This document shows, in pieces, positions 39,473-53,687 of a stretch of 57,638 bases of DNA. Under the pieces are notes generated by a model that did no database searches, was not told where the DNA came from, and worked only from the letters and a program-made list of their open reading frames with translations. The position numbers and the translations under genes were made by a program. Source of the DNA: Minisyncoccota bacterium (lineage in GTDB: Bacteria > Patescibacteriota > Minisyncoccia > Phycocordibacterales > CAJBRS01). Within the stretch, counting starts at the first letter, position 1, and each line of letters starts with the position of its first letter. The stretch covers positions 1 to 57,638 of the forward strand of contig JADGRH010000001.1 in the NCBI GenBank assembly GCA_017881075.1, written 5' to 3'.

Positions 39473-39793
39473 ATGGAAGGCGAACCAGAAATAGAAGAAT
39501 TTCAAAGTGCGGAGTTGGTAATAGAAGATCCGATTATGGATAAAAATTTCATGATCAGTTTTGAGGCAGAAAATGAAGATCAAAATCGGGCTTATAATGT
39601 CGCTATAAGTGAAATATGCAACAGAGAAAAATTAAAGCCATTTCATCAAGTCGGTTCTCATGAATCTTCGGGCTATCAGGCCTGGGAGATGTGGACAGAG
39701 ACGGACAAAGAGAAACTAAATCAATTATTGTCAAAAATTCAAAGTCTGGCTAAGGAAACATATGACCGATGGAAGGAGTCAAAGATCATTTAA
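39473..39793 (+). CDS. Hypothetical acidic protein (106 aa)
   Basis: ORF only. Confidence 0.4.
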   Translation: MEGEPEIEEFQSAELVIEDPIMDKNFMISFEAENEDQNRAYNVAISEICNREKLKPFHQVGSHESSGYQAWEMWTETDKEKLNQLLSKIQSLAKETYDRWKESKII

Positions 39794-39816
39794 TTAACGA
39801 AGTCTGACTTCGTTAA
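39794..39816. repeat. REP-like palindrome, family A (TTAACGAAGTC-T-GACTTCGTTAA)
   Basis: Perfect 11-bp arms. It starts immediately after the stop codon of 39473..39793. Confidence 0.85.
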
Positions 39817-39870
39817 TCTGCTACAATCGTAGATGAAATTTCTATAAAAATCTCTTAAAGATGATTTCAT

Positions 39871-39887
39871 CAGAGGTCTGACCTCTG
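39871..39887. repeat. REP-like palindrome, family B (CAGAGGTC-T-GACCTCTG)
   Basis: Perfect 8-bp arms. Same core as the copies in gatB. Confidence 0.8.
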
Positions 39888-39888
39888 C

Positions 39889-39911
39889 ATGTCAACGTGG
39901 CACGTTGACAT
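39889..39911. repeat. Palindrome ATGTCAACGTG-G-CACGTTGACAT
   Basis: Perfect 11-bp arms, adjacent to the REP copies. No second copy was noticed in the window. Confidence 0.6.
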
Positions 39912-39936
39912 TGGAGTTTGGTCTCTAAAGTCCCTG

Positions 39937-39945
39937 TGGTATAAT
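39937..39945 (+). promoter_or_regulatory. Extended -10 box TGgTATAAT, 7 nt upstream of the ATG at 39953
   Basis: TGGTATAAT, then tatctaa, then ATG. Confidence 0.45.
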
Positions 39946-39952
39946 TATCTAA

Positions 39953-41962: not shown

Positions 41963-42684
41963 AGCCCCGCTAATTGAATAGCAACATAAAGCACGGCAAC
42001 GCCGAGGACGGTCATTAATGTGGTCCATTTTGTGGGGTGGGCGTGATGGCTTTCGGGCAGGAGGTCGCTCGCACCTATATATAGAAAGAAACCGGTGAAG
42101 ATAGCGAGGACTATTCCCAGGGTTGATTCGGAAAGAGTGAAGAGGAAAGTGGATACAACTCCGAGTACTGGAGCTAACGCATCGGCGAGTAGCCATTTGA
42201 AGGCTTCACTACGGCCGCCGTGGTTTTTGGAGATGAGGCCAACGGTGTTGATGCCATCGGAGAAATCGTGGACTAAAACGGCGACGGCGACCACTGCTCC
42301 AACGGCGGCAGAGACCTGGAAGGCGACGCCAATGGCGACGCCGTCAAGAAAACTATGAAATGAAAGACTGCCTGCCCCTAATCTGCCGCGTCTGTTTTCA
42401 ATATGCGGATGAGAGTCATCATCCGTATGGCTGTGCATAATAATCATTCGGTCTAATATCAAATAAACCACAAAACCCAGAGCCATCATGGATGTAATAA
42501 ATGAGCCTGAGTAATTGACGCTACCGAGATTAATTGCTTCTGGCATCAAGTCAAAGAAGGCTACTCCAATAACAGCTCCGGCACTGAATCCTAAGATGAG
42601 ATGAAGACGATCCTGAAAACGCAAGGCGAATAACCCCCCGAGTAATGTAGCGACAAAAGCGGCGATAGCAATTAGAATAATCAT
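41959..42684 (-). CDS. ZIP-family metal (Zn/Fe) transporter, ZupT-like
   Basis: Polytopic membrane protein with a His-rich loop (HSHTDDDSHPH) and HDFSDG/HSFLDG motifs. Confidence 0.7.
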   Translation of the reverse strand: MIILIAIAAFVATLLGGLFALRFQDRLHLILGFSAGAVIGVAFFDLMPEAINLGSVNYSGSFITSMMALGFVVYLILDRMIIMHSHTDDDSHPHIENRRGRLGAGSLSFHSFLDGVAIGVAFQVSAAVGAVVAVAVLVHDFSDGINTVGLISKNHGGRSEAFKWLLADALAPVLGVVSTFLFTLSESTLGIVLAIFTGFFLYIGASDLLPESHHAHPTKWTTLMTVLGVAVLYVAIQLAGL

Positions 42685-42767
42685 AATAATTTAAGTATAA
42701 GTAAAATCAATTTGTAAATCAAAGTTCTTTCCTATAAGCTAAAAGCTATAACCTAATAGCTATTCAT

Positions 42768-43508
42768 ATGCCAATTGTTGAAGTAAAAAATCTGGTGAAG
42801 AAATTCGGCGACACTACCGCCGTTGATAATCTCACTTTTGAGATTGAAGAGGGTAAGATCACCGGTCTTCTTGGGCCAAATGGAGCGGGGAAGACCACTA
42901 CCATTCAGATGCTTCTTGATCTGATTATTCCCACTTCCGGTAGCATTCGTATTTTTGGCAAAGAGATGAAAAATTCTCGAGAAGAAATCTTGAGTAAGAT
43001 AAATTTTTCTTCCCCTTATGTTTCACTGCCGACTAATCTAAAAGTTTGGGAAAATCTGACCACTTTTGCTCGACTTTACGGAGTTAAAAATATTGAAAAA
43101 AAGATTGATGAACTAACAACCTTTTTTGATATCAAAGATTTTCTACCAAAGATGACTTCGGCACTTTCTACCGGCCAGCTCACTCGGCTTAATTTGACCA
43201 AGGCCCTACTTAATGACCCGGCCCTGCTTTTTCTGGATGAACCGACCGCTTCACTTGATCCCGATATTGCCGATCGGACCAGACAGCTCTTGAAACGTAT
43301 TCAAAAAGAAAGAAATGTCACTATTCTTTACACTACCCACAATATGGCCGAAGTAGAGGAGATATGTGATCGGGCCATCTTTATTCATCATGGAAAAATG
43401 AAGGACGATGGAGCACCTGCCGATCTGATTAAAAAATATGGTCGGGAAGATTTAAACGATGTTTTTTTAATGATTGCCAGAGGAGAAGCCGAGAATGTAA
43501 AATCATAG
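42768..43508 (+). CDS. ABC transporter ATP-binding protein (ABC-2 type)
   Basis: GLLGPNGAGKTTT, LSTGQLTRL, LLFLDEPTASLD. Confidence 0.85.
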   Translation: MPIVEVKNLVKKFGDTTAVDNLTFEIEEGKITGLLGPNGAGKTTTIQMLLDLIIPTSGSIRIFGKEMKNSREEILSKINFSSPYVSLPTNLKVWENLTTFARLYGVKNIEKKIDELTTFFDIKDFLPKMTSALSTGQLTRLNLTKALLNDPALLFLDEPTASLDPDIADRTRQLLKRIQKERNVTILYTTHNMAEVEEICDRAIFIHHGKMKDDGAPADLIKKYGREDLNDVFLMIARGEAENVKS

Positions 43509-43510
43509 AT

Positions 43511-44302
43511 ATGAACTTCAATCGCATCAGTGCCTTAATGATGAGACATCTTTATCTCTACCAGCGGAGCTTGCCGAGGCTGATGGATCTATTTTTTTGG
43601 CCGATTTTGGAAATTTTGGTATGGGGATTTTTAAGCGTCTATTTAGAAAAAATGAATTTGGGAGGATTAAATATTGTCAGCTTGCTTCTGGGGGCGATTA
43701 TCTTCTGGGATTTATTAAGTCAATCTCAAAAGGCGGTCTCTTTTGCTTTTATGGAAGAAGTTTGGGAAAAGAATTTCTTAAATATTTTTGTTACCCCTCT
43801 CAAAGTAAGTGAGTTCCTTTTTTCCACTTTTTTTCTGGGACTGATAAGAATCGTTTTAGTTGGAATTATTTTGGGCCTTTTCTCTTTTCTTTTGTATCAT
43901 TTTAATATATTTCAATTTGGACTTTATACTGTTCCTTTTATCATCAACCTACTTCTTTTTGGTTGGACTCTCGGTATCTTTACCACGGCCATCATTTTCC
44001 GTTTTGGTAGCTCCGCCCAGATCTTTGCCTACAGTTTAATATTCTTAATTCAGCCGTTTAGTGCCGTTTTTTATCCAATTTCAGCTTTGCCCCAAGCCCT
44101 GCAATTTGTTGCCTATCTTTTCCCGTCATCCTATGTTTTTGAGGGTATGAGGGCAATCATTCACAACGGGGTCTTTCCACTCAATTATTTCCTACTCTCT
44201 CTTGGACTGAATTTAGTCTATATGGCAGTAATTTTTTTCTTTTTCTATAAGGCTTTCTATTGGGTTAGAGTTCACGGCCGGTTAATGAAGATCGAGGGAT
44301 AA
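43511..44302 (+). CDS. ABC-2 type transporter permease
   Basis: Six-TM protein immediately downstream of the ATPase. Confidence 0.7.
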   Translation: MNFNRISALMMRHLYLYQRSLPRLMDLFFWPILEILVWGFLSVYLEKMNLGGLNIVSLLLGAIIFWDLLSQSQKAVSFAFMEEVWEKNFLNIFVTPLKVSEFLFSTFFLGLIRIVLVGIILGLFSFLLYHFNIFQFGLYTVPFIINLLLFGWTLGIFTTAIIFRFGSSAQIFAYSLIFLIQPFSAVFYPISALPQALQFVAYLFPSSYVFEGMRAIIHNGVFPLNYFLLSLGLNLVYMAVIFFFFYKAFYWVRVHGRLMKIEG

Positions 44303-44359
44303 TATTTGTGATAGAATATCATTGAAGTTAGAAAGCTTTATTAATTAATTTTATAAACC

Positions 44360-44509
44360 ATGCTTACAACAATCGCAGTCATATTGGTTGTTCTTTGGCT
44401 AATCGGGTGGGTAGCCCTGCCTGCTATAGGAGGTTTTATTCACATTCTGCTAGTCATAGCTATCATTGTTATCTTGGTCCGGATTATTCGGGGAAAGTCG
44501 GTGGTTTAA
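44360..44509 (+). CDS. Small membrane protein (49 aa), lmo0937-like family
   Basis: Own translation: MLTTIAVILVVLWLIGWVALPAIGGFIHILLVIAIIVILVRIIRGKSVV. It is followed by a strong terminator and was missed by the 60-aa cutoff. Confidence 0.55.
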   Translation: MLTTIAVILVVLWLIGWVALPAIGGFIHILLVIAIIVILVRIIRGKSVV

Positions 44510-44520
44510 AGAGTTTTGAA

Positions 44521-44556
44521 AACAGCCCCGCGGCCTTTGGCCGCGGGGCTGTTTTC
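44521..44556 (+). terminator. Rho-independent terminator
   Basis: AACAGCCCCGCGGCC-ttt-GGCCGCGGGGCTGTT followed by TTC. Confidence 0.7.
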
Positions 44557-44574
44557 TATAGTAAAATAGAATGG

Positions 44575-45399
44575 ATGAAAAGCACCCCCCACATTGCCCA
44601 TCGTCACCGTCACTCCGCCATTAGCTATCCAATATCTCTTAGCCAGAGGCTCTATACTTTTTTTGTAGGGCCTCTTTTAGTTGTTCTGATTCTATTTATA
44701 GTGGTCAAGTTTTTCTCCGGCTCGTCATTTGCCATAGTGGAGAAATTTTCTTTGGATGATCTGGTTAAGGCTCTTCTTGCCACATCCCTGCGTTTACTCA
44801 TTGCCTACATTTTGGCTCTTGTTGTTGCCGTACCACTTGCTCTTTTCGCCACTAGTAGTCGCTCTGCCGAAACTATTTTCCTGCCGGTCTTTGATATTCT
44901 GGAATCCGTTCCGGCTCTAGCCTTCTTTCCAATTCTTATTGTCTTTTTTGTCCGGCTGGATTTCTTGAATGGGGCCGCTATTTTTATTCTTTTTCTTTCC
45001 ATGCTTTGGAATATTGTTTTTACCTTAGTTGGCGGACTGAAAATCATTCCGAAAGATATTAAAGATGCCGCTCAAATCTTCGGCATCCGTGGTTGGAATT
45101 ATTTTCGCAAGGTTCTTCTTCCGGCTATTTTTCCGGAGCTTGTCACCGGCTCTATCTTAGCCGTAGCCCAGGGTTGGAACATCACTATTATTGCGGAAGT
45201 TCTCCATGTCTATATTCCTGGCGGCAACGCAAGCCATGACCTTTTTGGTATCGGCAGTATCTTGGTACAGGCCGCCTCCGGCGGCAAGACCGATCTTTTT
45301 ATTGTGGCCCTGGTTTTAATGGTTTTGATGATCGCCTTACTCAATTTCTTCCTTTGGCAAAAATTACTTCGTTATGCCGAACGATTCAAATTTGAATGA
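44575..45399 (+). CDS. ABC transporter permease (NitT/TauT-type, BPD_transp_1)
   Basis: The start is placed at the Met of MKSTPH, downstream of the terminator at 44521-44556. The track ORF from 44395 reads through the small gene and the terminator. Permease motifs: LLIAYILALVVAVPLAL..., SVPALAFFPI. Confidence 0.65.
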   Translation: MKSTPHIAHRHRHSAISYPISLSQRLYTFFVGPLLVVLILFIVVKFFSGSSFAIVEKFSLDDLVKALLATSLRLLIAYILALVVAVPLALFATSSRSAETIFLPVFDILESVPALAFFPILIVFFVRLDFLNGAAIFILFLSMLWNIVFTLVGGLKIIPKDIKDAAQIFGIRGWNYFRKVLLPAIFPELVTGSILAVAQGWNITIIAEVLHVYIPGGNASHDLFGIGSILVQAASGGKTDLFIVALVLMVLMIALLNFFLWQKLLRYAERFKFE

Positions 45400-46111
45400 A
45401 ATGAATAATATTATTGAATTAAAAAATGTTAGCAAGCTCTACAACCAGCCTCATCAGCTTGCTCTGGAGAACATTAACCTCTCAATCAGAGAAGGGGAGT
45501 TTATCTGTCTCATTGGTCCGTCGGGCGGTGGTAAGACAACACTACTTAAGATTATTGCTGGATTGGAAAAAGAAACGGCTGGAGAAGTAGTAAAACCGGA
45601 GAATGTCTCAATGGCTTTTCAGGGAGGAGCGCTCTTTCCATGGCTCACCGTTTATGAAAACGTGGCCCTAGGCCTGCAGGAGCAAGATCTTTCGGATTCC
45701 AAGATAAAGACCGAAGTTTTGAAATATTTAGAGATGATGAAGATGACTGACTTTGCTCTCAAATATCCGGCCGAACTTTCCGGCGGTCAGCGTCAAAGGG
45801 TTGGCATTGCCCGAGCATTAGCAGTGGAGCCAAGCGTTCTTCTTATGGATGAACCTTTCTCTGCTCTCGATGCTAAAACTACAGCTGAACTTCACGACGA
45901 TCTTATAAAAATCTGGAGAGACACCAAAAGAACTATCATTATGGTATCGCATCTCATCGAAGAAGCCGTCTCCCTCGCCGAGCGGGTGGTTCTGATAAAA
46001 AATTCCACCATCGCCGAGATCTTCAACATTGAGCTCCCATATCCCCGTCGCGAGCAGGGCTTGGCTTTCCATCACGACGTCATGAAGATCCGCCGCGAAT
46101 TCTTCAAATAA
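45374..46111 (+). CDS. ABC transporter ATP-binding protein (nitrate/sulfonate/taurine type)
   Basis: LIGPSGGGKTTLL, LSGGQRQRVGIARAL, LLMDEPFSALD. An alternative start at 45401 (MNNII) removes the overlap. Confidence 0.85.
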   Translation: MPNDSNLNEMNNIIELKNVSKLYNQPHQLALENINLSIREGEFICLIGPSGGGKTTLLKIIAGLEKETAGEVVKPENVSMAFQGGALFPWLTVYENVALGLQEQDLSDSKIKTEVLKYLEMMKMTDFALKYPAELSGGQRQRVGIARALAVEPSVLLMDEPFSALDAKTTAELHDDLIKIWRDTKRTIIMVSHLIEEAVSLAERVVLIKNSTIAEIFNIELPYPRREQGLAFHHDVMKIRREFFK

Positions 46112-46127
46112 CATCGAATTATCGTCG

Positions 46128-46154
46128 AATTATCGAAGTCTGACTTCAATAATT
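46128..46154. repeat. REP-like palindrome, family A (AATTATCGAAGTC-T-GACTTCAATAATT, 1 mismatch)
   Basis: Upstream flank of the Y1 transposase gene. Confidence 0.75.
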
Positions 46155-46207
46155 TATTTTTTCTTTATAAATTTTTTAGCGAAAATTCATCTCTGTTCAT
46201 TATTATT

Positions 46208-46234
46208 AAATATCGAAGTCAGACTTCGATATTT
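46208..46234. repeat. REP-like palindrome, family A (AAATATCGAAGTC-A-GACTTCGATATTT)
   Basis: Perfect 13-bp arms. It abuts the ATG at 46235. Confidence 0.85.
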
Positions 46235-46921
46235 ATGAGAAAAGAGCCATATACAGTTGGATCATACGTTCATGTAGTAAAAAGAGGACAGCGTAAGCAA
46301 CCGATTACCAAAGATATTCAAGATCAATGGCGTTTTTTAAAAATACTCAGACATTTTAATGATCAGTTTTCCTCTCCTAATTGGTATGGAGATTTAAATC
46401 CTAAAGAGCCATTCAAAAGAATTTCTCAATGGTCGCCTCAGCGACCCTTGGTGGAGATTCTAGCCTTTTGCCTAATGCCTAACCATTTTCACCTTCTTCT
46501 TAGAGAAATTCGAGAAGGAGGTATTTCAAAGTTCATGCAGAAAATAGGGACAGGTATGAGTAATTATTATAATATGAAATATGAAGAGGTTGGTAGTTTA
46601 TTTCAAGGAGCATTCAAGTCAAGAACAATTAACGAAGATATTTACCTTCGTTATGTCGCAGTCTATATTATGGTAAAGAATCCGTTAGAATTGTATCCAG
46701 GAGGTTTATCTAAAGCTATAGAAGATTTTGATTCCGCTTATGATTGGGCGGTCAATTACGAATTCGCTAGCCTGAAGGACTTCATAGGGAAAAGACACTA
46801 TTCCATTATCAGTCCGGGAATATTAAAAAATCTTTTCAAAGACGAAGCAGAATTTAAAGCCTTTGCTAAAGACTGTCTTGAAGGGAGAAATATGGATTTT
46901 AACGAAGTCAGACTTCGTTAA
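46235..46921 (+). CDS. IS200/IS605-type Y1 (HUH) transposase, REP-associated tyrosine transposase (RAYT)-like
   Basis: HUH motif CLMPNHFHLLL and the tyrosine region LRYVAVYIMVKNP, in a 228-aa protein flanked on both sides by the dispersed palindromes. Confidence 0.7.
   Translation: MRKEPYTVGSYVHVVKRGQRKQPITKDIQDQWRFLKILRHFNDQFSSPNWYGDLNPKEPFKRISQWSPQRPLVEILAFCLMPNHFHLLLREIREGGISKFMQKIGTGMSNYYNMKYEEVGSLFQGAFKSRTINEDIYLRYVAVYIMVKNPLELYPGGLSKAIEDFDSAYDWAVNYEFASLKDFIGKRHYSIISPGILKNLFKDEAEFKAFAKDCLEGRNMDFNEVRLR
46899..46921. repeat. REP-like palindrome, family A (TTAACGAAGTC-A-GACTTCGTTAA)
   Basis: It overlaps the last 7 codons and the stop codon of the transposase ORF (FNEVRLR*). Confidence 0.85.
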
Positions 46922-46951
46922 TTCGGGAATTCGTGTTATGATTTTAAATAT

Positions 46952-48067
46952 ATGAAAGACTCAAAGAAGGGCTTTGTTGGAGTGGCTTTATTAATAATCC
47001 TTGGTTTATTGGTTGTTGGCGGGGGAGCGTATTATTTTGGTACTCGTCATAGCGCAGAAGCGCCCGCGCAGGTTTCTACCGGTGATCAATCTGGCAGTGT
47101 TCCGAAATTGAATGATTATAGTAATCCTTCTACTAATACGACAGTGAACACTCCTAATACAACGTCAGGGAACGTTTCAAACACCACAAATTGGAAAACT
47201 TATACCAATGCTCAATATGGTTTTCAATTTCAATATTCAAGTGAAATTATTTTTCCATCTCCTACTTCCAACCCTCGGAATGTTTTTGCTCTTCAGTCAA
47301 AAAATTCAATTAGCAGTCCAATTTTGGGTCTATATATTTCATTACTTAAAGATTCAGGAGAGAATACATTACAAAATGATAAAGACACTTTAACCAATGG
47401 ACGAACAGGGATACAGATAAAAAATCTTACAATCGGAGGAAACCCTGGATTTATGGCCAGCCATATCGATAAAGAAGTAAGCGATGTCGGAGGACATATT
47501 ACCTACACCGCAAATTCTATAGTTGAGACCTTTAAAGATGGTAATATTTATGCGTTTGAATGTAGTCAGAATGGTACAGATACGAGTGAATGTAATCAGA
47601 CTATTTCCACCTTTAAATTCACCCAAGTAGCTCAAAATACAGATTGGAAAACTTATTCAGATTTCGGATTCTCATTTAATTATCCAAACAATATAGTACT
47701 AGCCCCTACTGGAGCAAGATTCGCCGTCGATTTCTTTTTAGACAATCCGTCAGATGCAAATATGGTTACCTTCTCGGCAGAAGATCCGGTGGCTACATGT
47801 GATGACATGGATAATGCAATAGGACCCAATGGAGTCCATAATTATAAAGGAGAAATGAAAATAATTAATGGTGTGAGTTTTCACAAAGCTGAATCATCTG
47901 AAGGATTCGCTGGAGGATCTGCACATTCTATTGATTACTACACTGTTCATAATAATTTATGTTTTGATTTGCGCTTTTCACATGCATCGTATACATCTAC
48001 TCTATCCGAATCAACTGCAATTTCAATGTTTGAAAACATTGTTGCAACCTTTAAACTCAAAAACTAA
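46952..48067 (+). CDS. Membrane-anchored or secreted hypothetical protein (371 aa)
   Basis: N-terminal TM/signal segment and a Ser/Thr/Asn-rich linker. No recognised domain. Confidence 0.5.
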   Translation: MKDSKKGFVGVALLIILGLLVVGGGAYYFGTRHSAEAPAQVSTGDQSGSVPKLNDYSNPSTNTTVNTPNTTSGNVSNTTNWKTYTNAQYGFQFQYSSEIIFPSPTSNPRNVFALQSKNSISSPILGLYISLLKDSGENTLQNDKDTLTNGRTGIQIKNLTIGGNPGFMASHIDKEVSDVGGHITYTANSIVETFKDGNIYAFECSQNGTDTSECNQTISTFKFTQVAQNTDWKTYSDFGFSFNYPNNIVLAPTGARFAVDFFLDNPSDANMVTFSAEDPVATCDDMDNAIGPNGVHNYKGEMKIINGVSFHKAESSEGFAGGSAHSIDYYTVHNNLCFDLRFSHASYTSTLSESTAISMFENIVATFKLKN

Positions 48068-48285
48068 TGGACCAAGAACTTCAAAAATTGCAGGCGAAGA
48101 TTGATGAGCAGAAGGTGCAGATTGATCAAATGTATCAGTCGGTGGAAAAGTTGCGCAAGTATTTTAAATGGACGATGATTATTACTATTATCGTTGTGGT
48201 TTTGCCACTGATCGGTCTCGTTTTTGCCCTACCGACTTTTCTTAATAATTATGTTGGTCAGGCCAATTCTCTCAGTGGTTTTTAA
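48067..48285 (+). CDS. Small tail-anchored membrane protein (72 aa)
   Basis: Coiled-coil N-terminus and one TM helix. Its start overlaps the upstream stop. Confidence 0.45.
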   Translation: MDQELQKLQAKIDEQKVQIDQMYQSVEKLRKYFKWTMIITIIVVVLPLIGLVFALPTFLNNYVGQANSLSGF

Positions 48286-48288
48286 TTC

Positions 48289-49572
48289 ATGAAGTTAGCA
48301 CCGAAAAAGCAGGTTTATTGGTATACCAAAAAGACTCCCACAATAAAAAAACTGGAGAATAATGCCGCCGCCGACGTGGTCATTGTCGGCGGGGGAATGG
48401 CCGGCCTCTCGGCCGGCCAGAAACTAAGCGAGGCCGGTCTAAAAGTCATTATTCTTGAATGTACTTTTTGTGGTGGGGGAGCGAGCGGCAAAAGCTCCGG
48501 CTTTCTCACTCCGGATTCGGAGCTCCAACTCGCCGATCTTTTGGAGAAATACGGCCCCGAAGGGGCCGTCAAAATGCGTCAATTTGTCGATGTTGGCCTT
48601 AATCTCATTCGGGATAACATTAAAAAATATAATATTGACTGCGATTACCAAATTCAGGATTCCCTCTTTGTCGCCAACTCAAGGAAGTCTTTTAGGAAAG
48701 TGGAAGTTGAACATCAGGCCAGAGTGAAACTCGGCTACGAAAGCAAGCTTTATTCGGAGGAAAAGTTGCCGGAAATTTTAGGAGGTAATAAATATTTCGG
48801 CGGTGTGCGATATCCCGGTAGCTTTGGCCTCAACTCTTATTTATATTGCCAGGCAATGAAAGAAATATTGGAAAAAAATGGTGTGGAGATTTACGAAGAA
48901 AGTTCGGTTTCGGAAATTATGGAAGGGAAGGTGAAAGCGGGAGACTTTGTTGTTTCAGCAAAATACATTATTGTCGCTACTGATCACTTTTTATCTAACT
49001 TCAATATTAGAAAGAGAGATGTTTATCATGCTCAAACATTTTTGGCTGTTTCCGCTCCACTTGAAGATTCAAAGTTTCGAAAGATCTTTCCGAACGACGT
49101 AACTATGGTCTGGGACACCGATCTCATCTATCAATATTTTCGTCCGATCGAAGGAAACAGATTACTCTTCGGTGCCGCTAATCTTCTTTACACTTATAAA
49201 CCACATGAAAAGAAAAATTTTGCAGATGTTATCCAAAAGATGCGGCGATATCTGAAAAATAAATTTGATCTCGACGATATTGTCTTTGAATATTCTTGGC
49301 CGGGCATGATTGGCGTTGCCAAGGATTTTGTACCGATTGCTGGGATTGATCCAAAAATGAAAAATGTTTTATATATGAGCGCCGCCACCGGTCTCCCCTG
49401 GGCGGCGGCCCTCGGCGACTATCTTGCCGGCAAGATCACTAACGGCCGGCAAGACTATGATCAATTTTTCTCGCCCGAACGACATTATCCCGTCAGTAAT
49501 AATATTCAAGTCGTTATCTCCAAGCCAGTTGCTTTTGCCATCAGTCATGGCATTATTAAGTACTTTAAATAA
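48289..49572 (+). CDS. FAD-dependent oxidoreductase (DAO family)
   Basis: VVIVGGGMAGLSAGQKL dinucleotide-binding motif, 427 aa. Confidence 0.7.
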   Translation: MKLAPKKQVYWYTKKTPTIKKLENNAAADVVIVGGGMAGLSAGQKLSEAGLKVIILECTFCGGGASGKSSGFLTPDSELQLADLLEKYGPEGAVKMRQFVDVGLNLIRDNIKKYNIDCDYQIQDSLFVANSRKSFRKVEVEHQARVKLGYESKLYSEEKLPEILGGNKYFGGVRYPGSFGLNSYLYCQAMKEILEKNGVEIYEESSVSEIMEGKVKAGDFVVSAKYIIVATDHFLSNFNIRKRDVYHAQTFLAVSAPLEDSKFRKIFPNDVTMVWDTDLIYQYFRPIEGNRLLFGAANLLYTYKPHEKKNFADVIQKMRRYLKNKFDLDDIVFEYSWPGMIGVAKDFVPIAGIDPKMKNVLYMSAATGLPWAAALGDYLAGKITNGRQDYDQFFSPERHYPVSNNIQVVISKPVAFAISHGIIKYFK

Positions 49573-49574
49573 AC

Positions 49575-50141
49575 ATGGACAAACTATTTATTCCAATTTT
49601 GCTTGGTACGGCTAGAGACGAGAGAGAATCGGAAAAGGTGGCGAAATTTGTTTTTGATCAATTTTCAAAAAATACCAAAATAAAAACCGAACTGATTGAT
49701 ATCAGAAATTTTGCTTTGTCCGAGACCACTCCTTCCTGGGTGGAAAGTCCGATCATAGCAGAATGGAGAGAAACTCTCACTAAGGCGGATGGATTGATAA
49801 TCGTTGCTCCGGAATACAATCATGGCTATCCAGGCGAGTTGAAATTACTGATCGATTCAGCCCTGAAAGAATATGAAAAAAAGCCCGTTGCCATCTGTGG
49901 CGTTTCGAGTAGCGCCATTGGTGGTGCCCGAATGATGCAGCACCTGATTCCCACTCTAAGCAAGCTGGGGATGATACCAATCAAAGATGCCGCTTACTTT
50001 TCTGTTGTCAAAGAGTTATTTAACCAAAAGGGTAAAATAAAAAACAAACAGAAATGGCAGAAAATTCTGAAAAAGATCTTCGACGAGCTTCTCTGGTATG
50101 CTAAAGTCCTAAAGGAAGGAAGAATTAAATATCCAAAATAA
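49575..50141 (+). CDS. NAD(P)H-dependent FMN reductase-like flavoprotein
   Basis: LIIVAPEYNHGYPGELKLLID motif. Confidence 0.7.
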   Translation: MDKLFIPILLGTARDERESEKVAKFVFDQFSKNTKIKTELIDIRNFALSETTPSWVESPIIAEWRETLTKADGLIIVAPEYNHGYPGELKLLIDSALKEYEKKPVAICGVSSSAIGGARMMQHLIPTLSKLGMIPIKDAAYFSVVKELFNQKGKIKNKQKWQKILKKIFDELLWYAKVLKEGRIKYPK

Positions 50142-50142
50142 A

Positions 50143-51039
50143 ATGCCTAAAGTAAAAATCATTACTCACGACGGTAATTTTCATCCGGATGAGCTTTTTG
50201 CTGTAGCTACTCTGCTTCTAGTACTTGACCTAAGTAATGATGAATATGAAATTATTCGGACGCGCGATCCAGAAGCGATTAAGACGGGAGATTATATTTT
50301 AGATGTTGGGGGTATTTATGATCCTGCCAACAATAGATTTGATCATCATCAAATCGGGAGAGCGGGGGAAAGACCGAACGGTATTCCTTATGCCACTTTT
50401 GGGCTAGTGTGGAAAAAGTTTGGAGAGAAGATTTGTGGAGGTAAAGAAATAGCAGATAGAGTGGATGAAAAAATGGTGCAATCGATTGACGCTGACGATA
50501 ATGGAGTGGCCACATTCCAACCTTTATCAAAAGACATCACACCTTACCAATTTGAATCGGCTATCTCGTCCTTCATTCCAACTTGGCGAGAAAAAGATCA
50601 AAACATTGACGCGGCTTTTTTAAAGGTGCTCGTTCTGGTGGAAGAAGTATTGGCTAGAGAGATCACTCGGGCAAAGCATTATTTTGAAGGCAAGAGTCTT
50701 ATATTGGAGGCTTATGAAAAAGCGGAAGATAAAAGAATTATTATTCTTAAAGACGCTTATTCTTGGAAAGAGGTCTTAAGTAAATTCCCAGAACCGTTAT
50801 TTGTAGTTGGCAATGATGGTCGCCGGTCGGAATGGGCCGTAGCCAGTGTCAGGGAAGAAGGGGCATCATTTGTAAGTCGTAAACTTTTACCGGAAAGCTG
50901 GGCCGGAAAACGCGATGACCAATTAGCAAAGATTACGGGTGTAAAAGAGGCGTTTTTTTGCCATAACGGTCGTCATCTTGCCATGGCCAAAACTTTTGAT
51001 GGGGCTATGGCTATGGCCAAACTGGCTTTAGAATCTTAA
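50143..51039 (+). CDS. MYG1/UPF0160 family metal-dependent hydrolase
   Basis: ITHDGNFHPDELFAVATL and FDHHQ motifs. Confidence 0.7.
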   Translation: MPKVKIITHDGNFHPDELFAVATLLLVLDLSNDEYEIIRTRDPEAIKTGDYILDVGGIYDPANNRFDHHQIGRAGERPNGIPYATFGLVWKKFGEKICGGKEIADRVDEKMVQSIDADDNGVATFQPLSKDITPYQFESAISSFIPTWREKDQNIDAAFLKVLVLVEEVLAREITRAKHYFEGKSLILEAYEKAEDKRIIILKDAYSWKEVLSKFPEPLFVVGNDGRRSEWAVASVREEGASFVSRKLLPESWAGKRDDQLAKITGVKEAFFCHNGRHLAMAKTFDGAMAMAKLALES

Positions 51040-51075
51040 TCAGACCTATAAGCTAACACCTAACACCTATCCTTT

Positions 51076-52086
51076 ATGCCATTCGTTGACGAATTAAAAA
51101 TTCATATTAGGTCAGGGAAAGGCGGGGACGGGGTGGTGCGCTGGCTGCATGAGAAAGGAAAGGAATTTATGGGTCCGGCTGGAGGAAATGGCGGCCGTGG
51201 TGGAAATGTTTCGGTAGAAGCGGTCAGTGATTTGAATATTTTATTTCACTATCGACATAAAAAAGAATTCAAAGCTGAAGATGGAGGAAACGGCATGAGT
51301 AGAAGTATGCATGGTAAGGATGGTGCAGATCTCATAATCAATGTGCCAATAGGCAGTGTTATTACTAATTTAGATACGGATAAGAAAATTTCTCTGTCAG
51401 AGAAAGGAGAGAAAGCGACGTTACTTGTCGGCGGCCATGGCGGGTTGGGTAACGAGTACTTTAAAGGTTCTAAGAATGTTCGGCCGAAAGAATCAACACT
51501 TGGTAAGGTCGGCGAAGAAGCAGATTTTTTTATTGAAGTGGAACTGGTTGTGGCGGCTGGTCTTGTCGGACTTCCGAACGCAGGCAAATCAAGCTTGTTG
51601 AATGCCATGACTGCGGCAGAAGCGAGAGTGGGGGAATATCAATTCACAACACTTGAACCAAATCTCGGTGCTCTCTACGAATTCGTTTTAGCCGACATCC
51701 CCGGCCTCATCGGAGGGGCATCGCTCGGAAAAGGTTTGGGTCATAAATTTCTACGACACGTTAAACGCACCAAAATTCTTTTTCACTGTATTTCTTTAGA
51801 GGAGGATGTATTAAATGCTTACCAGACTATTCGGAATGAAATAGAGCTTTTTGATCCAGAATTAGGAAAAAGGAAGGAAGTTATTATTCTCACTAAAACG
51901 GATCTTGTTTCCAAAGAAATTTTAGAGCAAGCTAGAAAAACTCTTTCCAATAAAAATTCCAAAATTTATGATGTGTCGGTTTTTGATGACCAATCGGTGG
52001 AAACATTAAAAGAAAAGATCCTCAAAATTCTGCGCTCGCCCACAGCTATAAAACAGACCGCTCCGGGGCGCTTGCCCAAGTCTTAG
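51076..52086 (+). CDS. obg: GTPase Obg/CgtA
   Basis: FVDELKIHIRSGKGGDG Obg fold, G1 GLPNAGKSSLL, G3 DIPGLI, G4 TKTD. Confidence 0.9.
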   Translation: MPFVDELKIHIRSGKGGDGVVRWLHEKGKEFMGPAGGNGGRGGNVSVEAVSDLNILFHYRHKKEFKAEDGGNGMSRSMHGKDGADLIINVPIGSVITNLDTDKKISLSEKGEKATLLVGGHGGLGNEYFKGSKNVRPKESTLGKVGEEADFFIEVELVVAAGLVGLPNAGKSSLLNAMTAAEARVGEYQFTTLEPNLGALYEFVLADIPGLIGGASLGKGLGHKFLRHVKRTKILFHCISLEEDVLNAYQTIRNEIELFDPELGKRKEVIILTKTDLVSKEILEQARKTLSNKNSKIYDVSVFDDQSVETLKEKILKILRSPTAIKQTAPGRLPKS

Positions 52087-52120
52087 TCTGTTTTATAGCT
52101 GTGGGCTTCGCTAGAATTTT
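52024..52120. repeat. Long imperfect inverted repeat spanning the obg 3' end and stop codon
   Basis: Inner arms CCCACAGCTATAAAACAGAC (52039-52058) and GTCTGTTTTATAGCTGTGGG (52086-52105) are perfect 20-mers. Outer arms are AAAATTCT/AGAATTTT. The loop is 27 nt. Confidence 0.8.
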
Positions 52121-52142
52121 GATTAAGTGATATATTTTTCAT

Positions 52143-53687
52143 ATGGAACCTAAATACTACCCGACAATTGGCTTGGAAATTCATGCGGAATTGGCGACTA
52201 AGACCAAGATGTTCTGCGACTCAAAAAATGACCCGAACGAGAAAGAACCAAATGTAAATATCTGTCCCATTTGCCTGGGGCATCCAGGCACTCTTCCCGT
52301 TATCAATAAAGAGGCGGTGAAGCATGTCATTAAGGTGGGTATTGCCGTGGGTGGAGAGATTGCCGATTTTACTGAATTTGATCGTAAGAATTATTTCTAC
52401 CCCGATATTCCAAAGAGCTATCAGATCTCCCAATACAAATATCCTCTAGTTAAGGGGGGCACCCTTGATGGAGTAAAACTGACACGCATTCACCTTGAAG
52501 AAGACACGGCTACCTCAAAACATGACCAAGGAGATTTCTCTCTCATCGATTTCAATCGGGCCGGAGTGCCACTAATGGAATTGGTGACCGAGCCGGTCAT
52601 TCACAGCGCTGAAGAAGCCTCAAGTTTTGCTAAGGAGCTTCAATTACTTTTGCAATATCTTGGAGTGGCCGAAGCTAACATGGAGAAAGGAGAGATGAGG
52701 GTGGAAGCGAATATATCAATAAGCCCAATATCGAAGTCTGACTTCGATATTGGGAAGAAATATCGAAGTCAGACTTCGATATTGGGAACAAAAGTAGAAG
52801 TAAAAAATCTAAACTCATTTAAATCTGTAGAAAAAGCTATTGCATATGAGATTAACCGAATGGCAGAAATCTTAGAGAAAGGAGAGAAAGTAATTCAGGA
52901 AACGCGTGGCTGGGACGAAATCAAACAGAAAACTTTTTCTCAAAGGGAGAAAGAAGAATCGCATGACTATCGTTATTTTCCGGATCCCGATCTTCCGAAG
53001 CTTTACATCAGCGAGGTGCCAGAATTTAAAAAAGAAGTTTTAGAAAAAGAGATTCCTGAATTACCGTCTCAAAAAAGGGAACGTTATAAAAAAGATTTTG
53101 GACTGAAGAATGAAGATGTAGAAATGTATGTTAGGGGAAAGGAGTGGGGAAAATTTTTTGAAGAAGTAGTTTCAAAACTTGCAGAGGTCAGACCTCTGCA
53201 AGAGCAAGAGAAAAGCAGAGGTCTGACCTCTGCAAGTTTGGTGGTGCTGGCTTCAAATTATGTTACTTCTGATCTGGTGGGAATTTCTAAGAATTCAGCA
53301 GAGAGAGGCCTGCCCGCCGCGCCGGCTAGGCAGGCGAGTGAAATTTTCGGAAAAATCTCGGCCGAAAATTTCGCCGAACTGATCCGGATGATCGGCGCCC
53401 GAGCGATCTCTTCTCGGGCGGCCAAAGATATTCTGGCTATTATGCATAAGGAAGGCGGCGATCCCCAAAAGATCGCCGCCTCCAAGAATCTCCTTCAAAA
53501 GCAAGATGCGGCCGAGTTAAAGATCATTGTTCAAAATATCATTGCCTCTAGCCCTCAAGTAGTAGCTGATTACAAAGGAGGCAAAGAAACCGCCCTTCAG
53601 TTTTTTGTTGGGCAGGCCATGAAAGAAACCAAAGGGGCGGCTAATCCAGAGAAATTGAGAGAGATTTTGCTAGAGCTGCTACAGTAA
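52143..53687 (+). CDS. gatB: Asp-tRNA(Asn)/Glu-tRNA(Gln) amidotransferase subunit B, carrying in-frame repeat insertions
   Basis: IGLEIHAEL, CPICLGHPGTLPV, FDRKNYFYPDIPK, RIHLEEDT, NRAGVPLMELVTEP, KNLNSF, and a C-terminal YqeY-like domain. It is 514 aa, longer than the usual ~475-480 as I recall. Confidence 0.9.
   Translation: MEPKYYPTIGLEIHAELATKTKMFCDSKNDPNEKEPNVNICPICLGHPGTLPVINKEAVKHVIKVGIAVGGEIADFTEFDRKNYFYPDIPKSYQISQYKYPLVKGGTLDGVKLTRIHLEEDTATSKHDQGDFSLIDFNRAGVPLMELVTEPVIHSAEEASSFAKELQLLLQYLGVAEANMEKGEMRVEANISISPISKSDFDIGKKYRSQTSILGTKVEVKNLNSFKSVEKAIAYEINRMAEILEKGEKVIQETRGWDEIKQKTFSQREKEESHDYRYFPDPDLPKLYISEVPEFKKEVLEKEIPELPSQKRERYKKDFGLKNEDVEMYVRGKEWGKFFEEVVSKLAEVRPLQEQEKSRGLTSASLVVLASNYVTSDLVGISKNSAERGLPAAPARQASEIFGKISAENFAELIRMIGARAISSRAAKDILAIMHKEGGDPQKIAASKNLLQKQDAAELKIIVQNIIASSPQVVADYKGGKETALQFFVGQAMKETKGAANPEKLREILLELLQ
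52724..52783. repeat. REP family A doublet inside gatB
   Basis: CCCAATATCGAAGTC-T-GACTTCGATATTGGG (52724-52754) and AATATCGAAGTC-A-GACTTCGATATT (52759-52783). Translated as PISKSDFDIGKKYRSQTSI. Confidence 0.9.
53178..53233. repeat. REP family B doublet inside gatB
   Basis: CTTGCAGAGGTC-A-GACCTCTGCAAG (53178-53202) and GCAGAGGTC-T-GACCTCTGC (53215-53233). Translated as LAEVRPLQEQEKSRGLTSA. Confidence 0.9.

What the first reader, a model, noticed from the sequence alone, without database searches (positions are those of the whole stretch)
46128..46921. REP/RAYT-like system: an IS200-type Y1 transposase flanked by copies of a dispersed palindromic repeat family
**The transposase and its flanks**
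- The 228-aa ORF has an HUH motif (NHFHLL) and a tyrosine region (VAVYIMVKNP), typical of IS200/IS605 TnpA and REP-associated tyrosine transposases.
- It is bracketed by near-perfect palindromes with the core CGAAGTC-W-GACTTCG, at 46128-46154, 46208-46234 and 46899-46921.
- The 46208-46234 copy abuts the ATG. The 46899-46921 copy supplies the last 7 codons and the stop codon.

**Dispersed copies in this window**
- The same family A recurs at 39794, 52724 and 52759.
- A sister family B (GCAGAGGTC-W-GACCTCTGC) recurs at 39871, 53178 and 53215.
- That makes nine copies in 57.6 kb.
- Copies come in both central-base states (T or A), meaning both orientations.

**Context**
- This is the signature of a REP/REPIN population maintained by a domesticated single-copy transposase.
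- I am not aware of this being described in CPR-type genomes.
Basis: partly seen in the sequence, partly recalled or inferred. Interest (0 to 1): 0.75.

Follow-up and report, generated by a model that had tools for sequence, protein, structure and literature searches.

The report
CPR RAYT gene with REP palindromes
One tyrosine-transposase-like gene in a small-genome (CPR/Patescibacteria) bacterium is bracketed by, and surrounded with, copies of a short perfect DNA palindrome; this is a REP/RAYT-type repeat system from a protein clade I found no description of, and some of its repeats sit in frame inside an essential gene.

Summary
GARGTCWGACYTC occurs 9 times in the window, against 0 expected.

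**The gene.** ORF 46235-46921 is a Y1/HUH protein. It matches Pfam Y1_Tnp, and its best structural match is the E. coli REP-associated transposase 4ER8.

**The flanks.** Perfect odd palindromes flank the gene. One ends on the A of the ATG. Another encodes the last seven codons and the stop.

The four copies at 52.7 and 53.2 kb form two doublets that fold as long hairpins. Both lie in frame inside gatB. Each adds 14 codons compared with the closest GatB.

**The wider family.** The protein belongs to a large Patescibacteria family.
- Of 74 distinct homologous loci, 36 carry the same palindrome on both sides of the gene. Only 3 of 253 control ORFs have a palindrome on both sides.
- Palindrome type follows protein relatedness.
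- The hairpin tip G-T-Y-W-R-A-C is conserved across the family.
- Extra copies lie elsewhere in the genomes, often inside real genes.

**Differences from described RAYTs.**
- The tyrosine motif is Y-x3-K-N, not Y-x3-N-P.
- There is a roughly 29-residue insert.
- This window's palindromes have no GTAG foot.

**Verdict.** This is a genuine REPtron-like system and a new variant of a known kind. Enzyme activity and genome-wide copy number remain untested.

The parts
46235..46921 (+). Y1/HUH tyrosine transposase-like gene (RAYT-like), 228 aa. HuH is N83-H84-F-H86, followed by F123-Q124, Y144, K148 and N149.
   Evidence: Pfam Y1_Tnp 2.9e-9. Family invariants. AF2 model with pLDDT 91.7. Top Foldseek match 4er8_A, E=1e-5.
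46207..46235 (.). Family-A palindrome TAAATATCGAAGTC-A-GACTTCGATATTTA with 14-nt arms. It abuts and overlaps the ATG.
   Evidence: DNA hairpin -10.5 kcal/mol, z -6.0.
46129..46153 (.). Degenerate family-A palindrome (11 of 12 pairs, central T), 80 nt upstream of the previous copy. Together they form an upstream pair.
   Evidence: Fold -4.5 kcal/mol, z -2.0.
46899..46921 (.). Family-A palindrome TTAACGAAGTC-A-GACTTCGTTAA that encodes the last codons (NEVRLR) and the stop of the Y1 gene.
   Evidence: Fold -8.2 kcal/mol.
39793..39817 (.). Dispersed family-A palindrome (12-nt arms, central T). It starts on the last base of the stop codon of ORF 39473-39793.
   Evidence: Fold -9.2 kcal/mol, z -7.4.
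39871..39887 (.). Dispersed family-B palindrome CAGAGGTC-T-GACCTCTG, intergenic, 74 nt from the family-A copy.
   Evidence: Fold -5.9 kcal/mol.
52724..52786 (.). Family-A doublet (REPIN-like): two 28-nt arms with a 7-nt spacer, 63 nt in all, in frame in gatB. It encodes PISKSDFDIGKKYRSQTSILG.
   Evidence: Net +14 codons compared with the closest GatB. Folds as a 28-bp hairpin, -31.5 kcal/mol, z -12.8.
53175..53239 (.). Family-B doublet: two 25-nt arms with a 15-nt spacer, in frame in gatB. It encodes KLAEVRPLQEQEKSRGLTSASL.
   Evidence: Net +14 codons. Folds as a 25-bp hairpin, -30.4 kcal/mol, z -11.3.
52143..53687 (+). gatB, the host gene that carries both doublets. It is 514 aa, against 465-495 aa for most of the 119 listed homologues.
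   Evidence: (PDB GatB 1e-110).

Best explanation
This is a REPtron. A single Y1/HUH single-strand-DNA nuclease and strand-transferase gene of the RAYT (TnpA-REP) kind sits between copies of its own target palindrome. More copies of that palindrome lie nearby, as singlets and as inverted doublets (REPIN-like).

**Shown**
- The gene has the Y1 fold and the HuH and Tyr residues.
- The same gene-plus-matching-palindrome layout recurs in dozens of independent Patescibacteria loci.
- Palindrome type changes along with the protein.
- Only the hairpin tip G-T-(C/T)-W-(G/A)-A-C is conserved across the family.
- Copies occur away from the gene, including in frame inside genes.

**Inferred from the E. 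coli TnpA-REP and IS608 precedents**
- The palindromes fold into hairpins when the DNA is single-stranded, for example on the lagging-strand template.
- The protein recognises the conserved tip and the stem.
- It cuts with Tyr144, using the His84/His86 metal site, and rejoins the strands.
- In this way it excises and inserts singlets or doublets.
- Insertion of either strand, or in either orientation, would give the two central-base states A and T.
- Insertions survive only where they keep the reading frame and fall in tolerant loops, as in gatB.
For: **The gene**
- Pfam Y1_Tnp.
- Invariant N83-H84-x-H86, F123-Q124, Y144, K148 and N149.
- The AF2 model's top Foldseek match is 4er8_A (REP-associated transposase bound to a REP hairpin), followed by the IS608 and ISDra2 TnpA structures.

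**The palindromes in the window**
- 9 copies against 0 expected.
- Stable DNA hairpins, and doublets at about -31 kcal/mol.

**Family-wide association**
- Among 74 distinct loci, an odd perfect palindrome lies upstream in 46, downstream in 44 and on both sides in 36. In all 36 the inner arms are identical.
- Control ORFs: 17, 25 and 3 of 253.
- The upstream copy ends about 15-30 nt before the ATG. The downstream copy starts 0-10 nt after the stop, or overlaps it.
- Related proteins share related palindromes.
- Tip logo: G 76%, T 82%, C/T 92%, W 97%.

**Dispersal**
- The exact 19-mer ATCGAAGTCWGACTTCGAT is found at 21 loci in about 11 species-level CPR genomes.
- In three of these loci it brackets a Y1 homologue about 760 bp across. 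In the others it is dispersed.

**Low copy number and non-viral origin**
- One Y1 gene in the window.
- One contig for this protein in its sample.
- No TnpB next door.
- Synteny is kept on both sides between loci whose proteins are 62-90% identical.
- Only two weak relatives in viral contigs.

**Real insertions**
- gatB carries +14 codons twice compared with its 72%-identical relative.
- A 27-nt singlet encodes QVSKSDFDT in an RsmI-like gene. By comparison with my recollection of the E. coli RsmI sequence, this looks like about 9 added codons.
Against: - No activity data exist.
- The genome-wide copy number in this organism could not be measured. Only 57.6 kb is visible, and all nine copies lie within 13.4 kb.
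- The NCBIfam REP_Tyr_transpos score of 33 is far below the cut-off of 80.
- The Y motif is Y-x3-K-N rather than Y-x3-N-P, so catalytic details may differ.
- This window's palindromes lack the GT[AG]G guide that canonical RAYTs read.
- Copy numbers seen in the other genomes are low: 6 exact copies in 482 kb of MAG nzgw456.
- Some related genes are not syntenic, so the cassette itself may move.
- Family B has no identified enzyme of its own.
Confidence: 0.8

Rival explanations
1. This is an autonomous IS200-like insertion sequence. The gene and its two hairpin ends move as one unit, and the dispersed palindromes are solo ends or MITE derivatives left by that IS, not the substrate of a resident single-copy enzyme.
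For: - Hairpins sit at both gene ends, as in IS200 elements. This comparison rests on established knowledge of the family.
- Several pairs of related genes lie in unrelated contexts: L026/L029, L099/L105 and L003/L095.
- The cassette is inverted between the same neighbours in L003 and L006.
Against: - One copy in the window and one contig for this protein in its sample.
- No near-identical gene duplicates were seen in any locus.
- Proteins sharing the same 19-mer palindrome are only 66-78% identical to each other.
- Synteny is kept on both sides at 62-90% protein identity.
- There is no tnpB.
- The Y motif is not Y-x3-Q.
- The palindromes also occur alone, far from any Y1 gene and inside genes.
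Confidence: 0.08
2. The palindromes are host-function DNA sites, such as binding or processing sites used in replication, repair or DNA uptake. Selection maintains them. The Y1 protein is a fully domesticated nuclease that acts on them without spreading them.
For: - The identical 19-mer occurs in about 11 species-level genomes of 46-61% GC, and in this 41% GC window. The associated proteins are only 46-78% identical.
- In an Exo_endo_phos gene, the palindromic codon set sits on a native motif at the same codons in 4 species found by DNA search.
- The same holds for 2 of 4 further orthologues chosen by peptide alone. My own rough estimate for chance codon choice is about 1 in 2000.
- The window holds no decayed copies.
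- Many host genes carrying copies act on DNA: UvrC, HolB and the exonuclease beside dprA and topA.
Against: - Palindrome sequences differ widely between lineages apart from the 7-nt tip.
- Positions are mostly not conserved.
- The gatB and RsmI-like copies are lineage-specific additions in loops, which looks like insertion rather than function.
- Intragenic REPs in repair and replication genes are already reported for mobile REPs (PMC3733652).
Confidence: 0.1
3. The palindromes are ordinary transcription terminators or RNA-level regulatory hairpins, and they lie near a transposase gene by coincidence.
For: - Three of the copies (39793-39817, 39871-39887 and 46899-46921) lie at or just after ORF ends.
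- The stems are stable.
Against: - No T-tract follows them, and the terminator scan does not call them.
- Four copies lie in frame inside gatB.
- Rfam finds nothing above threshold.
- The flanking association with Y1 genes is 36 of 74 loci against 3 of 253 control ORFs, with matching sequences.
Confidence: 0.02

Closest known systems
E. coli TnpA-REP (RayT/YafM) with REP/BIME sequences, the REPtron (Quentin subclass 2.2, Bertels Group 2; PDB 4ER8)
   Same: - A Y1/HUH fold, and the best structural match.
- A low-copy gene bracketed by its own palindromes.
- The same palindromes dispersed as singlets and inverted pairs.
- Protein and repeat vary together.
   Different: - Sequence similarity is undetectable. 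phmmer and a family profile both miss 4ER8, and the NCBIfam score is 33 against a cut-off of 80.
- The protein is 228 aa, against 165 residues in the 4er8_A chain.
- Y-x3-K-N replaces YIHYNP.
- The repeats are perfect odd palindromes with a conserved GTYWRAC tip. In this window they have no GTAG foot.
- Many copies are intragenic.
Quentin et al. 2018 subclass 2.1, equal to Bertels Group 1 RAYTs and the TIRYTs of Di Nocera 2013
   Same: - The closest relatives found in cultivated bacteria (Pseudomonas and Legionella plasmid 'transposases', 26-31% identity) carry the motifs of this subclass (PMC6006769 Table 1).
- The HuH variant NH[YF]H and the FQ motif are shared.
- The length of about 230-240 aa and the extra C-terminal region are similar.
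   Different: - Subclass 2.1 is reported to have no REPs, or GGGGWSAS terminal inverted repeats (PMC6006769, PMC3733652). This clade has hairpin palindromes in a REPtron layout.
- This clade has a roughly 29-residue insert containing the invariant W66.
- It also has a longer Y region, YI[MQ]VKN..EL.P against YIELNP.
Quentin subclass 2.4 (Bertels Group 4): 'double-foot' REPs and REPs inserted in frame in the tnpA gene
   Same: - Many relatives' palindromes carry TGT[GA]G...C[TC]ACA on both feet.
- Matching palindromes lie in frame inside the Y1 gene itself in L044, L049, L058, L063, L081, L085, L094 and L098.
   Different: - The protein motifs differ: WQ and YIxNNP there, FQ and Y-x3-K-N here.
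- The window's own palindromes lack the GT[AG]G feet.
IS200/IS605 TnpA (IS608, ISDra2)
   Same: - The same fold and HuH/Tyr chemistry. These are the second-best structural matches.
- Hairpin recognition on single-stranded DNA is the model for the mechanism.
   Different: - No Y-x3-Q motif.
- Not multi-copy.
- No tnpB.
- The protein is about 80 residues longer.
- The repeats are dispersed without the gene.
Rickettsia palindromic elements and other intragenic REPs (Di Nocera 2013, PMC3733652)
   Same: - Palindromic repeats inserted in frame in housekeeping genes, adding short peptide segments.
- Dimers encode 20-30 residues.
- DNA repair and replication genes are often hit.
   Different: - Here the putative mobilising enzyme is encoded next to copies of the repeat.
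- The units are shorter, at 17-31 nt.
- One site (the exonuclease gene) is a native motif written in palindromic codons, not an added segment.

Membership tests
RAYT / TnpA-REP (REP-associated tyrosine transposases) | Y1 HUH fold with a HuH motif and a catalytic tyrosine | tested here: met
   Pfam Y1_Tnp 2.9e-9. N83-H84-F-H86 and Y144 are invariant in 28 of 28 sequences. Top Foldseek match is 4er8_A.
RAYT / TnpA-REP (REP-associated tyrosine transposases) | Class-2 tyrosine signature Y-x-x-x-N-P (PMC6006769) | tested here: not met
   The family has Y144-I-M-V-K148-N149-P, with K and N invariant. The motif is one residue longer, or carries a 6-residue insert when aligned to subclass 2.1 proteins.
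RAYT / TnpA-REP (REP-associated tyrosine transposases) | Gene flanked by its own palindromic repeats (REPtron layout) | tested here: met
   In the window: 46207-46235 and 46899-46921, plus 46129-46153. Across the family, 36 of 74 distinct loci have matching palindromes on both sides, against 3 of 253 control ORFs.
RAYT / TnpA-REP (REP-associated tyrosine transposases) | The same repeats dispersed in the genome in more copies than the gene | tested here: inconclusive
   The window has 6 family-A and 3 family-B units for 1 gene, all within 13.4 kb. MAG nzgw456 has 6 exact 19-mers in 482 kb, 4 of them away from the gene. L097 has 9 and L065 has 9 in 7-13 kb. The whole genome of this organism was not available.
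RAYT / TnpA-REP (REP-associated tyrosine transposases) | 5' GT[AG]G guide tetranucleotide at the foot of the hairpin | tested here: not met
   The window's feet are AATATCG, TTAACG and CTTGCAG. Many relatives do have TGTGG or TGTAG feet on both sides.
RAYT / TnpA-REP (REP-associated tyrosine transposases) | Single or low copy number, no near-identical duplicates, mostly vertical inheritance | tested here: inconclusive
   One Y1 gene in 57.6 kb and one contig in its sample. Two-sided synteny holds for L003/L091, L087/L096, L044/L081 and L002/L075, but not for several other pairs.
RAYT / TnpA-REP (REP-associated tyrosine transposases) | NCBIfam equivalog REP_Tyr_transpos (NF047646) score cut-off | tested here: not met
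   33.1 bits against a cut-off of 80.
RAYT / TnpA-REP (REP-associated tyrosine transposases) | Sequence-specific binding and cleavage of the REP hairpin in single-stranded DNA | not testable with these tools
   This needs the purified protein and oligonucleotides.
IS200/IS605 TnpA insertion sequence | Y-x-x-x-Q tyrosine motif and a short protein of about 150 aa | tested here: not met
   Y-x3-K-N and 228 aa (PMC6006769 Table 1).
IS200/IS605 TnpA insertion sequence | Several near-identical copies per genome, often with tnpB | tested here: not met
   One copy in the window. The neighbouring genes are an ABC ATPase and a 371-aa protein with no Pfam family on record.
Quentin subclass 2.1 / TIRYT | NH[VYF]H, W[EQ] or FQ, and Y[IV](E/H)LNP motifs with a C-terminal HTH-like domain | tested here: inconclusive
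   NHFH and FQ are present. The Y motif differs, and a roughly 29-aa insert is present. The C-terminal 150-222 region is helical in the model and has no Pfam match. HTH similarity was not tested.
Quentin subclass 2.1 / TIRYT | No REPs, or terminal inverted repeats carrying GGGGWSAS | tested here: not met
   The flanks are hairpin palindromes with a GTYWRAC tip, not GGGGWSAS repeats.

The most novel reading that the evidence does not exclude
The Patescibacteria clade is a previously unclassified RAYT subclass with three unusual properties.
- Its catalytic helix is altered: an invariant Lys sits at Tyr+4, where IS200 has Gln and other RAYTs have Asn.
- It recognises a conserved hairpin tip (GTYWRAC) rather than a GTAG foot.
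- Its palindromes are actively kept perfect. They are even written into native coding sequence at the same codons in different species, as with the exonuclease motif [IV]SKSDFDI.

This would imply hairpin-templated correction, gene conversion or selection on the DNA sites. The repeat population would then be a long-lived, partly host-integrated system in streamlined genomes, not a transient parasite.
Probability: 0.25. Interest if true: 0.75.

Novelty: new variant of a known kind. Interest (0 to 1): 0.62.

Why it matters
**Why it bears on RAYT/REP biology**
- RAYT/REPIN systems are the main example of a transposase that stays with one lineage and tends a population of short repeats. They have been characterised mainly in Proteobacteria, with additional subclasses reported in Cyanobacteria, Bacteroidetes and other phyla.
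- This finding extends them to Patescibacteria. Those genomes are very small and tightly packed, with little intergenic space to hide repeats.
- Here the repeats survive in frame inside essential genes such as gatB, uvrC, holB and rsmI-like genes.

**What the clade offers**
- It is large. 451 clusters at 50% identity score E<=1e-30 against the family profile.
- Dozens of natural protein and palindrome pairs share a common 7-nt tip. That makes it a ready-made data set for working out how a Y1 enzyme reads a hairpin.
- The altered tyrosine motif and the palindromic recoding of a native exonuclease motif are concrete, testable oddities.

**Practical consequences**
- These palindromes can break assemblies.
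- They add short peptide inserts that can confuse annotation and protein alignments of CPR genomes.

Tried and rejected
- **Solved structures by sequence.** phmmer found nothing, and the family profile gave only ISDra2 TnpA at E=0.33. Placement therefore rests on the predicted fold.
- **This organism's own genome.** I hoped the genome-contig scan would return it so that copies could be counted. It did not. Only other species matched.
- **Relics.** The search with 2 mismatches gave only chance-level extras.
- **Closest gatB relative.** L031 (72% identity) is not syntenic upstream and has no GTCWGAC palindromes with arms of 6 nt or more. Exact insertion boundaries and target sites could not be read at that divergence.
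- **Same element in the same GatB loop elsewhere.** This was rejected for L112 and L113. Their loop inserts are different imperfect inverted repeats. L113 does carry a GGAGGTTaAACCTCC unit elsewhere in gatB.
- **Exonuclease copies as insertions.** This was rejected. The peptide motif is native to the family.
- **Terminator, promoter and known-RNA readings.** All were rejected.
- **Viral origin.** This was rejected. Only two weak hits were found.
- **Literature.** Searches for RAYT with Patescibacteria or CPR found nothing specific. One preprint merely lists the KEGG term.
- **Central base as an orientation marker.** The central base (A or T) shows no fixed relation to gene orientation.
Full report
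**Observation**

The pattern GARGTCWGACYTC has nine exact matches in the window, at 39799, 39873, 46135, 46215, 46904, 52733, 52765, 53184 and 53218. Shuffles expect 0.00. Allowing two mismatches adds only four matches where three are expected, so all copies are intact and there are no decayed relics.

Each copy is an odd palindrome with one central A or T. Perfect arms run from 8 to 15 nt. The copy at 46129-46153 is the exception, with one mismatch.

ORF 46235-46921 (228 aa) matches Pfam Y1_Tnp at 2.9e-9. The palindrome 46207-46235 ends on the A of the ATG. The palindrome 46899-46921 encodes NEVRLR and the stop.

As single-stranded DNA the units fold at -6 to -10.5 kcal/mol.

The four copies at 52.7 and 53.2 kb lie inside gatB (52143-53687) and are read in frame.

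They form two inverted doublets:
- 52724-52786 has 28-nt arms and a 7-nt spacer. It folds at -31.5 kcal/mol.
- 53175-53239 has 25-nt arms and a 15-nt spacer. It folds at -30.4 kcal/mol.

This GatB is 514 aa, where most of the 119 listed homologues are 465-495 aa. Against the closest relative (72% identity, 486 aa), each doublet is a net gain of 14 codons. One falls in the loop between ...EANISIS and GTKVEVKN. The other falls after ...VVSKL. Solved GatB structures also lack the first segment.

All nine copies lie within 13.4 kb centred on the Y1 gene, and none lies in the first 39.7 kb. With so few independent sites, that is only suggestive of local spread.

**The protein**

A search of 5.8 billion proteins found 1712 relatives. 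The best non-self hits are 50-57% identical. Where the source names them, they come from Kaiserbacteria, Yanofskybacteria, Paceibacterota or the Patescibacteria group. A profile search of 1.84 billion cluster representatives found 451 clusters at E<=1e-30.

In a 28-sequence alignment the invariant residues include N83-H84-x-H86, F123-Q124, Y144, K148 and N149.

An AlphaFold model has mean pLDDT 91.7. Its best PDB match is 4er8_A, the E. coli REP-associated tyrosine transposase bound to a REP hairpin (E=1e-5). The IS608 and ISDra2 transposases follow.

Sequence-only searches of the PDB miss all of these. NCBIfam's REP_Tyr_transpos model scores 33 bits against a cut-off of 80.

The nearest relatives in annotated plasmids of cultivated bacteria are 26-31% identical. 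Two of them, from Pseudomonas and Legionella, carry NHVH or NHYH, WE or FQ, and YIELNP or YIVLNP. These are the marks of subclass 2.1 of Quentin et al. (PMC6006769), which equals Group 1 of Bertels et al. (PMC5581495).

Compared with those two proteins, the Patescibacteria clade has a roughly 29-residue insert carrying the invariant W66. It also has a longer tyrosine region: Y-I-M-V-K-N-P-L-E-L-Y-P against Y-I-E-L-N-P. So it fits neither the Y-x3-N-P signature of class 2 RAYTs nor the Y-x3-Q signature of IS200.

**Association of gene and palindrome across the family**

I gathered homologous loci in two ways: by exact-protein look-ups and by one metagenome scan. Of 74 distinct loci with at least 80 nt on both sides:

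| Position of an odd perfect palindrome (arm >= 7) | Y1 loci (n = 74) | Control ORFs in the same loci (n = 253) |
|---|---|---|
| Within 150 nt upstream | 46 | 17 |
| At or after the stop | 44 | 25 |
| Both sides | 36 | 3 |

In all 36 two-sided cases the inner six bases of the two copies are identical.

These counts leave out loci whose flanks are 3-nt-loop hairpins or long doublet hairpins, which are also common.

The upstream copy typically ends 15-30 nt before the ATG. The downstream copy starts 0-10 nt after the stop, or overlaps it. In several proteins the C-terminal tail is palindrome-encoded: EVRLR here, and QVRPA in P0049 and P0082.

The palindromes differ between lineages. Examples are GAAGTCwGACTTC, GAGGTTwAACCTC, GATATCwGATATC and GAGAGCCwGGCTCTC. 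Related proteins nevertheless carry related palindromes.

The tip is conserved: G at -3 in 76%, T at -2 in 82%, C or T at -1 in 92%, and A or T at the centre in 97%.

Many relatives have TGT[GA]G on both feet. This recalls the "double-foot" REPs of subclass 2.4. The window's own copies do not have these feet.

**Dispersal in other genomes**

The exact 19-mer ATCGAAGTCWGACTTCGAT occurs at 21 loci in about 11 species-representative genomes, nearly all labelled as CPR groups or as unclassified MAGs.

In L024, L026 and L029, two copies about 760 bp apart bracket a Y1 homologue that is 46-48% identical to the window's. These three proteins are 66-78% identical to each other. The other 18 loci are dispersed copies.

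Thirteen of those 18 lie inside ORFs of at least 120 aa. Ten of those ORFs were scanned against Pfam, and nine have Pfam domains in that frame: UvrC, a MurD-like ligase, HolB (twice), an RsmI-like methylase and an Exo_endo_phos nuclease (four times).

The encoded peptides are the three reading frames of the palindrome: VSKSDFD(T/I), YRS(Q/L)TSI and (I/N)EVRLR.

In-frame copies also lie inside the Y1 gene itself in eight loci. Quentin et al. reported the same for subclass 2.4.

Intragenic REPs, often in repair and replication genes, are already described for other bacteria and include some Rickettsia palindromic elements (PMC3733652).

**An unexplained detail**

In the Exo_endo_phos gene, which sits between dprA and topA, the palindrome falls on the same codons in four species. 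Their proteins are only 49-65% identical.

It is not an insertion. The motif x[SA]x[SA]DFD is native to that family, and [IV]SKSDFD is one common variant, seen in 17 of 120 sequences.

To avoid the bias of having found these loci by DNA search, I fetched four more orthologues chosen only for that peptide. Two carry the perfect palindromic codon set TCG AAG TCT GAC TTC GAT. Two use TCA AAA AGC GAT TTC GAY. My own rough estimate is that codon choice alone would give the palindrome about once in 2000.

So something acts on the DNA here: repeated replacement, conversion from other copies, or selection. I cannot tell which.

**Copy number and inheritance**

The window holds one Y1 gene. The sample's own assembly holds one contig with this protein. 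No TnpB-like neighbour is present.

Pairs of loci whose proteins are 62-90% identical keep the same neighbours on both sides: L003/L091, L087/L096, L044/L081 and L002/L075. Other pairs do not. In L003 and L006 the gene is inverted between the same neighbours.

L034 has two different Y1 genes, each with its own palindrome type. Viral contigs hold only two weak relatives.

**Interpretation**

The layout is that of a REPtron:
- a resident, low-copy Y1 enzyme gene lies between copies of its substrate palindrome;
- singlets and inverted doublets of that palindrome are dispersed nearby;
- protein and repeat change together across the family.

The mechanism is inferred from the E. coli TnpA-REP and IS608 precedents, not shown here. 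In that model, hairpins form on single-stranded DNA, the enzyme recognises tip and stem, Tyr144 cleaves at the His84/His86 metal site, and strand transfer follows.

The rivals fit less well:
- An ordinary IS200-type element does not fit the single-copy state, the deep divergence, the missing tnpB or the solo repeats.
- A pure host-function reading is not excluded and would explain the exonuclease site. However, most copies are lineage-specific additions in loops.
- Terminator and RNA readings fail on the in-frame copies, on the lack of T-tracts and on Rfam.

**Novelty**

I found no paper on RAYT/REP systems in Patescibacteria. In the two classification papers, a term search of one and the passages read of the other show no candidate-phyla names.

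The system is of a known kind. It differs in its catalytic motif, its insert, its tip-conserved perfect palindromes and its heavy intragenic load. I rate it a new variant of a known kind.

**Main gaps**

- There are no activity data.
- There is no whole-genome copy count for this organism.
- No enzyme has been assigned to family B.

Noticed in passing
L014 6766-6790, L019 213-235, L022 4502-4522, L030 3357-3377, L118 10064-10086, L119 1596-1616: In an Exo_endo_phos gene beside dprA and topA, the family-A palindrome sits on a native motif ([IV]SKSDFDI) at the same codons in six species. Two other orthologues with the same peptide (L116, L117) use unrelated codons. This is not an insertion, and the cause is unknown.
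   Followed up: partly
L003 10001-10711 versus L006 10001-10711: Both loci have the same neighbours (pth, an S1-domain gene, lactamase_B and gyrA), but the Y1 gene is inverted between them. Inversion between the flanking palindromes, or re-insertion, could explain this.
   Followed up: partly
L034 6001-6699 and 10043-10696: Two different Y1 genes lie 3.3 kb apart (54% and 30% identical to the query). Each is flanked by its own palindrome type.
   Followed up: no
L112 2034-2068 (gatB): The loop insert of another CPR GatB begins with a 14-bp hairpin. Its left arm is native coding sequence (VEANVS) and its right arm is an inverted copy of that sequence. The rest of the insert is a different imperfect inverted repeat.
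   Followed up: no
L113 gatB loop (RVEAN...VEVKN) and 1896-1910: A third GatB has a different AG-rich/CT-rich imperfect inverted repeat in the same loop. It also has a GGAGGTTaAACCTCC unit in frame at about residue 388.
   Followed up: no
L044 6292, L049 2776, L058 6171, L063 4211, L081 2096, L085 1124, L094 6177, L098 1063: Matching palindromes lie in frame inside the Y1 genes themselves, around residue 57-67 or around residue 193-195.
   Followed up: partly
window 39793-53239: All nine copies lie within 13.4 kb centred on the Y1 gene, and none lies in 1-39.7 kb. This may reflect local spread, but there are too few independent sites to test it.
   Followed up: partly
window 44518-44556: A perfect 18-bp GC-rich hairpin (GAAAACAGCCCCGCGGCC ttt GGCCGCGGGGCTGTTTTC) lies after the small ORF 44360-44509. 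It looks like an ordinary two-way terminator and is unrelated to the repeat family.
   Followed up: no
L118 15267-15319: A 53-nt perfect palindrome is built from nested ATGTCGGACAT units with a TCaGA centre. It looks like a compound version of the same kind of repeat.
   Followed up: no
L017 3908-4249 and L023 7559-7999: MAGs nzgw457 and nzgw456 each also carry a more distant Y1 paralogue (37-38% identity to the query) in addition to the family-A palindromes.
   Followed up: no
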